Shown here one piece after another: positions 30,508 through 63,460 of a stretch of 64,000 bases of DNA. The position numbers were made by a program, and so were the translations under genes. The notes under the pieces are model-generated. The model was not told the DNA's origin. It was given only the letters and a program-made list of their open reading frames with translations, and did no database searches. The DNA comes from Pelagomonas calceolata (lineage: Eukaryota): positions 1,984,001-2,048,000 of the forward strand of contig CAKKNE010000002.1 of the NCBI GenBank assembly GCA_918797485.1, given 5' to 3'. Position 1 is the stretch's first letter; every line of letters starts with the position of its first letter.

Positions 30508-30944
30508 TTTTGCGGGATGCTGTTCTGGCGTCGGTGTTGACGACAGAGGTCTGCGTCGCACGAAAGAGAGCGCGAGGCCGGCGTCGCGCCGGTCGCGTAA
30601 GGAGGCTTGCCGCGCGCTGTGCCACGCGTTTGTAGGTGTCAGCGCTGCGTGCCGCGCTCGCTTTTGTTGCGTTTTGGCAGCAAGAGGTTTTTTGCCTTTT
30701 ACTGCGCGTGACGGCCCTCGTTTTGCAGGCGGCTTCGCGAGGCGTGGCTGTGGGATGCCTGGTTTGGGTTTTTGCGAGTTTCGGGTGCGAATACAGAGAT
30801 TTGCTGCCGGCTGCACGGGTCAAATCGGGAAATTCTCGGGTCACCGGAGGAAAAAAGGGTTTTGCGATTGAACGATTTAGAAACCCAAATTTTTACTATT
30901 TCAGCTTTCCCAGAGCTGGCAGACATCGGTCGCCGCTCAAATAC

Positions 30945-31049
30945 GCATCTGTGGCCGCACGCACTAACACGCGTGCCACTAGTGGTCTAAGGCGCTGCAT
31001 TCAAGTCGCAGTTCTTTCGGGAGCGTGAGTTCGAACCTCACCAGATGCA
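30945..31049 (+). tRNA. tRNA-Leu(CAA) with a 23-nt non-canonical intron (30958-30980, position 13/14)
   Basis: Acceptor stem GCATCTG/CAGATGC, anticodon loop TTCAAGT, long variable arm, T arm with GTTCGAAC and a T5 terminator. The cloverleaf forms once the insert is removed. Confidence 0.9.
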
Positions 31050-31054
31050 TTTTT

Positions 31055-31125
31055 ACACTAATGATGTAGTGGCAACATCTAAGATTCCCATTCTTAGTCC
31101 CCGGGTTCGATTCCCGGTTGGTGTA
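31055..31125 (+). tRNA. tRNA-Gly(CCC), intronless
   Basis: ACACTAA/TTGGTGT acceptor, TAAGA-TTCCCAT-TCTTA anticodon arm, CCGGG-TTCGATT-CCCGG T arm and an oligo-T terminator. Confidence 0.92.
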
Positions 31126-31540
31126 TTTTTTTTGCCCCCTGTGCCCCTACACCCCCCCTTGCCCCCCTGGGCCGAAACGAGGTCCCACGAGTACCCGAGG
31201 TTGGCGGGAGACGCAACCGACTTTGGTTGCGGTCACCGTTCTGATCTGGGTCGCGTGTGCGACTTCTGGTGCTGGAATGACCTAGAATGGACAGGATGCA
31301 GCCGAGTTACGGGCCACCGAACCGAGACGACGGTAATTTTTTTTTTGGAGCTAGGAGCCGTTCCGATGCGGGGATCGCGTCGATGGCGTCAGAACGGCCT
31401 CTATTGCAAAGCATACCGGCCTTGGCCCGCACGCGAAGATTCCTCGACTCGAGAGCTTGCAAGCCCAAAGTTGGGCTCCGCACCGCTCACACACAGCAGT
31501 GCTATTGCGCTGTGAATTAGCAATCAACGAGTCGAAGAAG

Positions 31541-36836: not shown

Positions 36837-36937
36837 TGCGAATTACCCGGATCGAACGGGTGACCTACAGATCTTCAGTCTGGCGCTCTCCCAACTGAGC
36901 TATCGATACCCAAGTGGAATACAGGGGTCAAATCCGC
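36837..36937 (-). tRNA. tRNA-Phe(GAA) with a 28-nt non-canonical intron (36902-36929, position 8/9)
   Basis: The spliced product GCGGATTT|AGCTCAGTTGGGAGAGCGCCAGACTGAAGATCTG..GTTCGATCC..AATTCGCA is a 73-nt typical Phe tRNA; a T-run follows downstream. Confidence 0.92.
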
Positions 36938-37169
36938 GAGCGTTGAGTGATCACCATTTGTGAGCTCCTGACTGGAGAAATGAATTCGCCAGCGAAACCC
37001 CGATCTGAAATGCGTTGCCGAAAAACCCGGTTCCATCCGGGGCCGCAAACGACTCTCAAAAATCAAACAAACGAGGGCCTCGCGAACGCGGCCGACGCGG
37101 CAACGCTGGGAAGTGGGCGCCAGCGCCGCTCGAGGCTGCCGGTGGCGCGCCGCCGCCCGGGAAGCAGCC

Positions 37170-50599: not shown

Positions 50600-52648
50600 A
50601 TGCAACGCTGGGCGGCATTGCTGCTCCTTGTCCTAAACGCGACAGCTTTGCAGCTGCCGTGGCTCGCGTGGCGTGCACTCACGCCTAGACTGCCCGGCGG
50701 CCGGATCGATGAATGCCTCAAAAACGCCGCAGCGGTGCAGGTGCCGTCCGCCGCGGCGACGGGCACAGCTATCAAGTCTTTGTGCTTTGACACGGACATG
50801 GGAGGGCACGTTGTTGCCGTCGTGCGAGCTACTGACGGTGTCGACGCTGCGCGATTAGCGTCCGCCATCGGTGCGCAGACCGCGAAGTTATCTCGGCCGG
50901 ACGCAGTCGAGGCGGCGACGGGATTCGGCGTCGGCTGCGTGCCGCCGGTGGGCGTCGCGACCCCAGTCGTCGTCGACGAGGCCGTCGCGGCCCTGCGCGG
51001 CCGCGTCGTCGGCGGTGCTGGCGACGAGGCGCGGCAACTCGTTATTCGCGACGGCGCGGAGCTGCTGCGCCTCTCGGCTGGAATCCGGGCGGACATCCGG
51101 GGCTCGGGGCGCCCAACGCCGTCGGCGCCGACATACAGAGCGCAGGGCTTCGACGCAACCGGAAGAAACGTGACAATCGTGGGCCGCATCGCGTCGAAAC
51201 GCCAGATGGCGAAGAAGCTCTGCTTCGTGTCGCTGACGCCGCCAGGTGGTGGCCGCTGGCGGCCGCTCGGGCGATTGCTCCCGTACCCGGACGTCGAGCT
51301 CCAGGTCATCCTGGGCGCGACACTGGCCCGACAGCGCGGCAACGACGCTGCAGCAAACGTGATCCGGCGGCTCCGCGTCGGGCAGGTCGTCGTGTGCGAC
51401 TGCGTGCCAACCTGGCGCGACCGGCCCTCGGTGATGGGTCGATTCATCGAGCGGTGGCGCCAGGTTCATAAGAGGCGCCAGATAGACCTCCGCTGTTCGG
51501 ACGTCGGGACGGTCCGCGGCTTCGGCGGCGCCGGCGACAAGCCGAGAACCAGACGGAAGGAGCCGGCGCCGCTCCAGTACCTGGAACTCCCGCGAGACGT
51601 CGCCCTTCACTACGTGACTGACGCGAGCGAGGCGCCGGCCGCCATTACCGCAATCGCCGACGCTGCCATCGTCGGCCTCGACGCCGAGTGGGAGCCCGAC
51701 TCCTCCAGCGACACGCCGGCGGCGACGGTGCAGCTCGCAACCAAAGACGCGTGCGTCGTCCTCGACCTCGTCGCGCTCGCTACGAACGAAGGAGGCCTCG
51801 CGGCCGCCGACGCCGTCGTCGCCGCGGCGCTGGCGAACGCGGTGCTCGTCGGATTCGGTCTGGAGACGGACCTCGCGCGGTGTCGACCCTTGCTGACGAG
51901 CCTCGACGCGCCGGAGACGCGCGAGCTCCAAGGCACGGCGAGCTCACTCGCCGCCCTCGTCCGCAGGACGCTGGGCCGCGACCTCGACAAGCGCCTGCAG
52001 AGGAGCGCGTGGGGCGCGATGCCGCGGCCGCTGCCCGACGACTGCGTCACGTACGCGGCACTCGACGCCTACGCGTGCGTGATGGCCTACGACGCGCTCG
52101 ACGGTGAGCCTGTGGCGCCGGCCACGGCCGCGCGCGACCTGCGCGTGACCGAGGATGTCGTGGAGCGGTGTTTGGGGAGAGGCCGCGACCGGAAGCGCGG
52201 CGAACATCCCAAAGACGCGGCGTTGTCGTTTTTATCGGGCGAGGAGGCGGTCGGCGGCTACGACAAAAGAGGCGGCGCGGCGCGCATAGCCGACGGCTCG
52301 GTGCTCTTCGTCAACTGGCAAGGACGCGGCGAAAATATCCGCACGACCTACTTCGACCGCAAGTACCCGAATGCGATAGCCGACGGCTCCGTGACGTGGT
52401 GGCCTCCGAAGAACTTCGACGAGGAACGGCTGTCGGAGCCGCTCCACCTATTTGGCCGACGAGGCAAGAGCAGTTTCCTGTACCTCGGGCGCTTGTTATA
52501 CGTCGGACCGATGGCGCAAGCCGGCACCGCGCCCGGAGGTTTAGTATTGAAGCTCCTCGACGCGGAAGAGCTCGAGCGGCGCGCCGACGACGGCGACGCG
52601 CAGCCCGGGCTGCGGGCGCTGCTCGACTCCGCGGCCGCTGTTGTTTAA
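50600..52648 (+). CDS. YbaK/proofreading domain + OB-like + DEDDy 3'-5' exonuclease fusion protein
   Basis: IKSL..TGFGVGCVPPVG (YbaK); GLDAEW..VQLA..DKRLQRSAW..YAALDA (WRN/EXD-type exonuclease). Confidence 0.75.
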   Translation: MQRWAALLLLVLNATALQLPWLAWRALTPRLPGGRIDECLKNAAAVQVPSAAATGTAIKSLCFDTDMGGHVVAVVRATDGVDAARLASAIGAQTAKLSRPDAVEAATGFGVGCVPPVGVATPVVVDEAVAALRGRVVGGAGDEARQLVIRDGAELLRLSAGIRADIRGSGRPTPSAPTYRAQGFDATGRNVTIVGRIASKRQMAKKLCFVSLTPPGGGRWRPLGRLLPYPDVELQVILGATLARQRGNDAAANVIRRLRVGQVVVCDCVPTWRDRPSVMGRFIERWRQVHKRRQIDLRCSDVGTVRGFGGAGDKPRTRRKEPAPLQYLELPRDVALHYVTDASEAPAAITAIADAAIVGLDAEWEPDSSSDTPAATVQLATKDACVVLDLVALATNEGGLAAADAVVAAALANAVLVGFGLETDLARCRPLLTSLDAPETRELQGTASSLAALVRRTLGRDLDKRLQRSAWGAMPRPLPDDCVTYAALDAYACVMAYDALDGEPVAPATAARDLRVTEDVVERCLGRGRDRKRGEHPKDAALSFLSGEEAVGGYDKRGGAARIADGSVLFVNWQGRGENIRTTYFDRKYPNAIADGSVTWWPPKNFDEERLSEPLHLFGRRGKSSFLYLGRLLYVGPMAQAGTAPGGLVLKLLDAEELERRADDGDAQPGLRALLDSAAAVV

Positions 52649-63046: not shown

Positions 63047-63460
63047 CCCGACCGTCGCGGCGTCCCGCCGGCGGCCTCTTCCAGCTCCAGGTCGTTCCAG
63101 CGCTCCGGCTCCTTCTCCGTGAGGACGTCGCCCGAGTCGACCTCGCCTGTGTAGTAGTATTATGGTCAGAGGAGTATTGAGGGGTAGGAATGTGTGCGAT
63201 GTAGAGCGAGGGTCCTCGGCGATCTTGGTGATTGAAAAAGGTCGTCATCGCGACGCTCGAGAGTAGCAAATATGTTGTGTTCGTCAGCGGACCCAATTAT
63301 GATGCATGTGACGCTGGGGATAGGCACCTTCGTCGCCGAAGGTTTCGCCCGCGGGCAGCTCGACCTCGTCGTCACTCAAGCAGTCCTCGGCCCAGGCCTC
63401 GTCCACCACCTCGTGGACCTTCTTCCACTCGCAGAGCTTGCTGAAGTTGCTGTCGGACAT
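63043..63460 (-). CDS. APC13: Anaphase-promoting complex subunit 13 (two exons; intron 63147-63327)
   Basis: Spliced MSDS..VVDEAWAEDCLSDDEVELP..EPERWNDLEL matches the Apc13 DxW..D.L and WxDL motifs. Confidence 0.78.

What the first reader, a model, noticed from the sequence alone, without database searches (positions are those of the whole stretch)
30945..31049. tRNA-Leu(CAA) with a BHB-like intron in the D arm (13/14)
Seen: a 23-nt insert cacgcactaacacgcgtgccact between G13 and A14. It forms a perfect 4-bp central helix U8G9G10C11/GCCA, a bulge CG|C, an inner helix ACGC/GCGU with an 8-nt loop, and a second site CU|A (outer helix unpaired, so a relaxed HBh'). Both predicted cuts fall exactly at the junction that restores the cloverleaf. 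Two of the three tRNAs in 64 kb have unrelated ectopic introns at different positions. Inference: this is a genome-wide phenomenon, and split or permuted tRNAs may also exist.
Basis: partly seen in the sequence, partly recalled or inferred. Interest (0 to 1): 0.85.

Follow-up and report, generated by a model that had tools for sequence, protein, structure and literature searches.

The report
Misplaced tRNA intron in pelagophyte alga
A marine pelagophyte alga carries a conserved leucine tRNA gene that ARAGORN and Rfam miss because a 23-base insert interrupts its D-arm; the insert can take the shape that archaeal-type enzymes cut, so it is likely spliced out, which would extend a trait reported in archaea and red algae to a stramenopile nucleus.

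Summary
Confirmed. Window 30945-31049 is a tRNA-Leu(CAA) gene with a 23-nt insert between G13 and A14. Intronless homologues fix that junction exactly. It is the only one of 13 possible cuts with a full 4-bp central helix; a 4-bp inner helix is present and the outer helix is absent (HBh'; shuffle p 3.5e-5). Four metagenome contigs keep the insert, with conserved exons and one compensatory acceptor-stem change, so this is neither an assembly error nor an obvious pseudogene. ValRS homologues place the window in pelagophytes (stramenopiles). The kind is known: Cyanidioschyzon merolae has 13/14 introns, one with the same geometry. The lineage looks new: no stramenopile report in 10 literature searches. 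The neighbouring tRNA-Phe has an insert at 8/9, and an unplaced relative has one at 4/5. Against: no RNA read covers the gene, the BHB fold is a minor conformer (P 0.03), only two intron alleles exist so there is no covariation, and the enzyme and the genome-wide claim could not be tested. The scan noted similar introns before in C. merolae and giant viruses, none in pelagophytes.

The parts
30945..30957 (+). tRNA-Leu(CAA) 5' exon, positions 1-13 (acceptor 5' strand, U8-G9, D-stem 5' strand)
   Evidence: 1 of 13 columns variable among 5 copies
30958..30980 (+). 23-nt insert at 13/14, predicted ectopic intron; inner helix 30959-30962 with 30971-30974, 8-nt loop; 3' strand of the central helix at 30975-30978
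   Evidence: present in 4 of 10 metagenome loci, absent from 6 of 10
30952..30955 (+). 5' strand of the 4-bp central helix (tRNA positions 8-11)
   Evidence: also paired in the consensus fold of 5 copies
30981..31049 (+). tRNA-Leu(CAA) 3' exon (D-loop, anticodon CAA, variable arm, T-arm, acceptor 3' strand, A73)
   Evidence: 1 of 69 columns variable, the compensatory partner of position 6
31050..31054 (+). T5 run between the Leu and Gly genes; possible weak Pol III terminator or spacer of a dicistronic precursor
   Evidence: invariant in the aligned copies; role inferred
31055..31125 (+). intronless tRNA-Gly(CCC) with an A1-U72 first pair, followed by T8 (31126-31133)
   Evidence: A1-U72 also in the L007 homologue, 61 of 71 nt identical
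30901..30938 (+). strongly conserved 38-nt element just upstream of the Leu gene; function unknown, candidate upstream promoter or structured leader
   Evidence: 1 of 38 columns variable against 90 of 267 in the far flank; binomial 3e-6 with post-hoc boundaries
36837..36937 (-). tRNA-Phe(GAA) with a 28-nt insert at 8/9 (36902-36929); 7/8 gives the same product but worse geometry

Best explanation
This is a conserved nuclear tRNA-Leu(CAA) gene of a pelagophyte alga, interrupted at position 13/14 by a 23-nt insert that is likely an intron removed by a structure-reading tRNA splicing endonuclease. Shown by sequence and comparison: the junction; the HBh' geometry the insert can form (positions 8-11 pair with the insert's GCCA, a 3-nt bulge holds the 5' cut, and the 3' cut lies in an unpaired CU|A beside the acceptor stem); exon conservation; the lineage. 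Inferred: Pol III transcribes the gene, probably helped by upstream sequence because the intragenic A box is split. The acceptor stem holds G7 and so limits the central helix to 4 bp. [quoted passage not shown] A tRNA ligase joins G13 to A14, after which the D-stem can form. The insert was probably gained in the Pelagomonas-like lineage, since all six other homologues found lack it.
For: Empty-site homologues: 6 of 10 loci lack the insert and read G13-A14 directly; L005 is 73 of 82 nt identical to the in-silico product. 13/14 is the only one of 13 cuts with central helix 4/4 and 0 mismatches to L005. Chance of the geometry 3.5e-5. Selection on the tRNA body: 2 of 154 exon columns (Leu plus Gly) vary against 90 of 267 and 32 of 174 in the flanks, and the two Leu changes are one compensatory pair, U6-A to C6-G. 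The insert varies more than the exons (3 of 23, Fisher p 0.016), but only in the loop (2 changes) or as C-G to U.G in the inner helix. The A31.C39 mismatch is shared by all 6 distinct homologues, so it is no sign of decay. Local BHB energy is -9.1 kcal/mol, within the -11.2 to +1.15 range given for C. merolae motifs shown spliced by RT-PCR (PMC3728597). Same position and helix layout in C. merolae tRNA-Tyr(GUA), by my count from Fig. S1. PMC10485636 section 6 proposes that non-Amorphea (alpha-beta)2 TSENs may splice such introns and that tRNAscan would miss them. Lineage: the best named full-coverage ValRS hits are Aureococcus (77%) and Pelagophyceae CCMP2097 (73%).
Against: No transcript evidence: 0 reads on the tRNA in about 42 million polyA records from 4 runs of one sample, and neither of 2 RNA contig sets covers it. 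These libraries are a poor test for tRNA, so this neither supports nor refutes. The exact BHB fold is rare in the predicted ensemble: P 0.03 for the window allele and 0.002 for the L004 allele. In the window allele a 6-bp hairpin buries G13 and the first intron base (P about 0.9). The 5-copy consensus keeps the central helix but not the bulge and has no covariation term. Only two intron alleles were found, because the scan needed an exact 26-nt match. The enzyme was not found or tested. A second, intronless Leu(CAA) gene elsewhere in the genome is not excluded (no genome held). The lineages of L005 and L007 are unknown.
Confidence: 0.8

Rival explanations
1. The gene is an insertion-inactivated copy, and an intronless tRNA-Leu(CAA) elsewhere in the genome does the decoding.
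For: Yoshihisa 2014 notes that short D- or T-arm insertions in eukaryotic tRNA genes are mostly taken as pseudogenes (PMC4090602). No genome-wide check was possible. Intronless L005 and L007 cannot be placed. No RNA reads.
Against: Exons are almost invariant while flanks vary at about one column in three, and there is a compensatory acceptor pair. The BHB geometry matches the exact junction. L005 and L007 have a different gene order and different variable and T arms, which fits other species.
Confidence: 0.08
2. The insert is removed, but not through the BHB fold: either at the 11/12 or 12/13 register (which gives U13 and a perfect U13-A22 pair) or by an enzyme reading the more stable extended hairpin.
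For: The extended 6-bp hairpin dominates the ensemble of the window allele. The 11/12 and 12/13 cuts differ from L005 at only one base. [quoted passage not shown]
Against: Those cuts give only 0 and 2 of 4 central pairs. All intronless homologues aligned have G13. The L004 allele weakens the extended hairpin and favours the central helix (P 0.85-0.87).
Confidence: 0.08
3. The RNA is used unspliced, as a tRNA with a hairpin looped out of the D-arm.
For: With the tRNA body fixed, the best fold forms the D-stem and extrudes the insert as a hairpin.
Against: By general tRNA structure (recalled), a 23-nt hairpin between 13 and 14 would disturb the U8-A14 core contact. It does not explain the exact 4-bp complement to positions 8-11 ending two bases before the junction. 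It cannot apply to the Phe inserts at 8/9 and 4/5, whose acceptor stems need excision.
Confidence: 0.04

Closest known systems
Ectopic BHB/BHL introns of nuclear tRNA genes in Cyanidioschyzon merolae (Soma et al. 2013, PMC3728597)
   Same: Nuclear tRNA gene; short intron outside 37/38; D-arm site; split A box. By my count from Fig. S1 text, Tyr(GUA) and Arg(CCG) have 13/14 introns, and Tyr has the same layout (positions 8-11 paired to the intron's 3' end, inner helix, no outer helix).
   Different: Red alga against stramenopile. The C. merolae genes have upstream TATA-like boxes; none was found within 100 nt upstream of Leu or Phe here. Its Leu(CAA) intron lies later in the D-loop. Its listed sites are D-stem, D-loop, variable arm and T-arm, not 8/9 or the acceptor stem. 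Splicing is shown there for other genes, not here.
Chondrus crispus D- and T-loop tRNA introns (PlantRNA 2.0, 10.1101/2021.12.21.473619)
   Same: Essential nuclear tRNA genes missed or called pseudogenes by standard tools because of ectopic introns; RT-PCR validated.
   Different: Fixed positions 20/21 and 58/59, whereas here the positions differ between genes and relatives (13/14, 8/9, 4/5).
Non-canonical tRNA introns of the Guillardia theta nucleomorph (Kawach et al. 2005, seen only through PMC4090602 and PMC3978253)
   Same: Short ectopic introns in D and T arms, multiple introns per gene.
   Different: Endosymbiont nucleus of red-algal origin, many introns without BHB; here a host nuclear chromosome and a clear central helix.
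Crenarchaeal (Thermoproteales) non-canonical introns with HBh' motifs cut by (alpha-beta)2 EndA (PMC4090602, PMC4033280)
   Same: HBh' geometry, free position including the acceptor stem (3/4), recent gains between related species.
   Different: Archaeal enzyme and promoters; no sequence link was tested or is implied.

Membership tests
Eukaryotic nuclear tRNA-Leu(CAA) gene | Cloverleaf with CAA anticodon, variable arm and A73 after excision | tested here: met
   ARAGORN call after excision; 93.7% of cells paired and 10 pairs with two-sided change across 6 distinct homologues
Eukaryotic nuclear tRNA-Leu(CAA) gene | Nuclear eukaryotic context, no encoded CCA, T-run after the gene | tested here: met
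   SNORD24 in the window; axonemal dynein light chain and Vps51 families; pelagophyte ValRS hits; T5 follows A73
Eukaryotic nuclear tRNA-Leu(CAA) gene | Under purifying selection | tested here: met
   2 of 82 Leu exon columns vary, as one compensatory pair; flanks 90 of 267 and 32 of 174
Ectopic BHB-type (HBh') tRNA intron | Insert outside 37/38 whose removal restores the homologous tRNA | tested here: met
   6 of 10 homologous loci lack it; junction unique against L005
Ectopic BHB-type (HBh') tRNA intron | 4-bp central helix, 3-nt bulge with the cut after its second base, inner helix | tested here: met
   4/4 Watson-Crick pairs, inner helix 4 bp, in all 5 copies; shuffle p 3.5e-5
Strict hBHBh' intron | Outer exon-exon helix closing the second bulge | tested here: not met
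   0 bp; the motif is the relaxed HBh' form
Ectopic BHB-type (HBh') tRNA intron | The motif is the favoured fold and is kept by covariation | tested here: inconclusive
   P(BHB) 0.03 and 0.002; two alleles only, one C-G to U.G change, no two-sided change in the intron
Ectopic BHB-type (HBh') tRNA intron | Spliced product exists in the cell | tested here: inconclusive
   No reads or contigs on the gene in 4 polyA raw runs and 2 RNA contig sets; libraries unsuited to tRNA
Ectopic BHB-type (HBh') tRNA intron | Cleavage by a TSEN/EndA of broad specificity | not testable with these tools
   No genome held; the enzyme was not identified
Permuted or split tRNA | 3' half upstream of the 5' half, or halves at separate loci | tested here: not met
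   All three T-arm motifs in the window belong to collinear genes; the rest of the genome was not tested
Group I, group II or spliceosomal intron | Large ribozyme core, or GT/GC...AG ends | tested here: not met
   23 nt, ends CA...CT; no intron family hit in Rfam

The most novel reading that the evidence does not exclude
Pelagophyte algae have an archaeal-like, position-independent tRNA splicing endonuclease and upstream-driven tRNA transcription. They are actively gaining BHB introns at free positions, including 8/9 and the acceptor stem (4/5), sites I did not find listed for eukaryotic nuclei. A large share of their tRNA genes is therefore unannotated, and such hosts could also process the ectopic tRNA introns this scan noted in giant viruses.
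Probability: 0.35. Interest if true: 0.75.

Novelty: new member of a known kind. Interest (0 to 1): 0.55.

Why it matters
Ectopic tRNA introns in eukaryotes are described for red algae and nucleomorphs; the two stramenopiles in PlantRNA 2.0 are not reported to have them. A 2023 review leaves open whether the probable (alpha-beta)2 TSENs of non-Amorphea eukaryotes splice introns at free positions, and warns that tRNAscan would hide such genes. A cultured marine alga with a 13/14 intron makes that question testable with one RT-PCR and one cleavage assay. The finding also means that tRNA sets of pelagophyte genomes are probably undercounted, and it argues that the trait arose repeatedly rather than being a red-algal relic, because close homologues lack the insert.

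Tried and rejected
RNA evidence: four polyA raw runs gave 1 read in the 451-nt stretch, upstream of the gene. RNA contig sets X10 and X20 do not cover the tRNA, and no run showed a joint. Neither is a real test. Genome census: no genome held. L003-L007 are not held as searchable records, and the flanks of L005 and L007 show no convincing coding synteny with the window, so their lineage is open. Viral contigs: no exact 13/14 Leu insert; a looser pattern gave 5 hits, none a tRNA before or after excision; no Phe match. Substitute upstream A box: a 7-of-8 match at -28 occurs, but 24% of random 60-nt windows score as well; the Leu and Phe upstream regions share no significant motif (117 of 1000 shuffles) and have no TATA. 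The upstream element as part of a permuted tRNA: it has a 5-bp stem with a 7-nt loop by eye, but no T-arm. An alternative 5' acceptor strand for Phe at 36989 (perfect 7-mer, 80-nt insert) has poor BHB geometry and was set aside. The first protein used for taxonomy was uninformative (haptophyte names at 57-62%). ARAGORN excision scans gave no usable scores. The L005 Phe test and the Gly comparison were off by one base and were redone. The bacterial promoter scan is not applicable. The protein atlas did not answer. Maruyama et al. 2010 and Marck and Grosjean 2003 were not held.

Full report
Observation. ARAGORN reports only the Gly gene. Rfam reports Gly, part of a Phe gene and SNORD24, but not the Leu gene, even at E<=5. 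After in-script excision ARAGORN calls tRNA-Leu(CAA), and likewise tRNA-Phe(GAA) at 36837-36937 after removal of 28 nt. A T-arm scan finds only these three genes in 64 kb, all collinear.

Junction. An exact 26-nt scan of metagenome contigs gave 10 loci. Four (L001, L003, L004, L006) match the window's flanks and carry the insert; six lack it. Of those six, L005 and L007 are 61% GC, with Phe directly upstream of Leu and, in L007, Gly(CCC) as well, the same three isotypes as in the window. L005 is 73 of 82 nt identical to the in-silico product. Among 13 cuts of 23 nt, only 13/14 gives no mismatch to L005 over positions 8-23 and a 4/4 central helix; 11/12 and 12/13 would give U13 and have 0 and 2 central pairs. 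The insert is also in contigs of DNA run X11, in both alleles, so it is not an assembly error.

Motif. The geometry is HBh': central helix 4 Watson-Crick pairs, inner helix 4 bp, outer helix 0, in all five copies. Shuffled inserts reach this in 3.5e-5 of 200,000 trials. The local energy is -9.1 kcal/mol, or -6.9 for the second allele. Against this, the exact BHB fold has ensemble probability 0.03 and 0.002 in the two alleles. In the window allele an extended 6-bp hairpin dominates. In the other allele the central helix dominates (P 0.85-0.87) but the bulge is paired. The five-copy consensus keeps the central helix, with no covariation. The second allele has three intron changes: two in the loop and one C-G to U.G. 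This is consistent with the motif but is weak evidence.

Selection. Variable columns among the five copies: Leu exons 2 of 82 (one compensatory acceptor pair), Gly 0 of 72, insert 3 of 23, flanks 90 of 267 and 32 of 174, and a 38-nt upstream element 1 of 38. Across 6 distinct homologues the cloverleaf has 10 pairs with two-sided changes, and the A31.C39 mismatch is shared by all.

Lineage. SNORD24 and eukaryotic protein families mark a nuclear eukaryotic sequence. For ValRS residues 90-500 the best named full-coverage hits are Aureococcus anophagefferens (77%) and Pelagophyceae sp. CCMP2097 (73%), ahead of diatoms at 66-69%; a Closterium hit scores similarly but covers only 64%. Window proteins lie on a 6.14-Mb contig, window GC runs 56-73%, and the DNA occurs in runs of one cultured organism and in marine metagenomes. 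This fits a pelagophyte, probably Pelagomonas (32.4 Mb, six chromosomes, 63.6% GC). The genus is inferred, not proven, and no tree was built.

Other inserts. The window's Phe insert (36902-36929) must be removed for the acceptor stem to form. The 8/9 register has central helix 3 of 4, inner 4, outer 2 (shuffle p 0.006), but this fold is rare in the ensemble. L007's Phe has no insert. L005's Phe has a 12-nt acceptor-stem insert whose 4/5 register gives a 4/4 central helix with the 5' leader and 7 Watson-Crick acceptor pairs (shuffle p 0.017), plus a 37/38 intron. So related genes carry inserts at different places, which suggests repeated recent gain. L005 and L007 could not be placed taxonomically.

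Mechanism. Inferred steps: Pol III transcription; folding into the HBh' conformer with the acceptor stem bounding the central helix; two cuts by TSEN; ligation. The Leu insert splits the A box. In Phe the insert's last T restores a full A box 28 nt downstream (8 of 8), which under A-box-directed start selection (general knowledge) would start transcription inside the insert; upstream control is therefore likely. The conserved upstream element is a candidate, but no TATA, no significant A-box substitute and no motif shared with Phe was found. It also lies near the apparent 5' end of a divergent transcript at about 30830 (one read and one contig). No RNA evidence for splicing was obtained.

Comparison. 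C. merolae has 42 introns in 27 nuclear tRNA genes, five in the D-stem and 14 in the D-loop, with splicing shown by RT-PCR for selected genes (PMC3728597; main text parts 1-4 of 6 and the supplement text read). Counting in Fig. S1, Tyr(GUA) and Arg(CCG) have 13/14 introns; I identified them by anticodon because the PDF labels are out of order. Chondrus crispus has validated 20/21 and 58/59 introns (PlantRNA 2.0 preprint, whole main text). The Guillardia nucleomorph and archaeal cases I saw only as passages in reviews (PMC4090602, PMC3978253, PMC4033280). A 2026 review lists red algae, the G. theta nucleomorph and prasinophyte or chlorarachniophyte permuted genes; its supplement includes Ectocarpus and Phaeodactylum but neither Aureococcus nor Pelagomonas (PMC13578239, passages and supplement). 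PMC10485636 (passages and section 6) poses the (alpha-beta)2 TSEN question, and PMC13728533 (passages) models that architecture in Arabidopsis. tRNAscan-SE 2.0 describes its non-canonical intron search for the archaeal mode (PMC8450103 passages). Ten searches (listings only, except for the papers named) showed no report for pelagophytes or other stramenopile nuclei. The Pelagomonas genome paper has no occurrence of 'tRNA' in its main text, and an Aureococcus announcement gives only a tRNAscan count of 123. Maruyama et al. 2010 and Marck and Grosjean 2003 could not be read, and subscription journals are largely missing, so absence from print is not established.

Earlier notes of the scan describe ectopic BHB introns in C. 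merolae and in giant viruses, none for this genome, this sequence or pelagophytes. They are unchecked leads; my viral scans found no 13/14 Leu case.

Verdict. A real, conserved and very probably spliced ectopic HBh' intron; a known kind at a known position, in a lineage where I found no report of it. New member of a known kind, interest 0.55; higher if a genome census and RT-PCR confirm the wider pattern.

Noticed in passing
window 36837-36937 (-): tRNA-Phe(GAA) with a 28-nt insert at 8/9; the insert's last T rebuilds a full A box 28 nt downstream of its normal place. C27.U43 mismatch shared with L005 and L007.
   Followed up: yes
L005 532-543 (-), within a tRNA-Phe gene: 12-nt acceptor-stem insert at 4/5 whose central helix uses the 5' leader, plus a canonical 37/38 intron; organism unplaced.
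   Followed up: partly
window 30901-30938 (+): 38-nt element upstream of the Leu gene, almost invariant among five copies while flanks vary; can form hairpins; function unexplained. A second conserved patch lies at about 30869-30894.
   Followed up: partly
window 31055-31125 (+): tRNA-Gly(CCC) starts with A1-U72 rather than the G1-C72 I recall as usual for glycine tRNAs; the L007 homologue has it too. Only T5 separates it from the Leu gene, so a dicistronic precursor is possible.
   Followed up: partly
window 36983-36989 (-): A second 7-mer perfectly complementary to the Phe acceptor 3' strand lies 52 nt upstream of the gene start; chance, or a remnant of a duplicated 5' end.
   Followed up: partly
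L005 and L007 upstream of Phe and Gly genes: A short B-box-like CGGTTCGA motif sits about 15-25 nt upstream of three tRNA genes in these two loci; it is not seen upstream of the window's Leu or Phe.
   Followed up: no
L002, L008, L009, L010 (with L016, L017): AT-rich, giant-virus-like tRNA clusters carry an intronless Leu(CAA) whose D-loop and anticodon arm match the algal gene over at least 26 nt, including A31.C39.
   Followed up: partly
window 63212-63292 (-): SNORD24 (U24) C/D snoRNA homologue, 48 bits, apparently between coding segments of a host gene.
   Followed up: no
window 50600-52648 (+): 682-aa ORF joining an aminoacyl-tRNA editing domain (PF04073) to a 3'-5' exonuclease domain (PF01612).
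   Followed up: no
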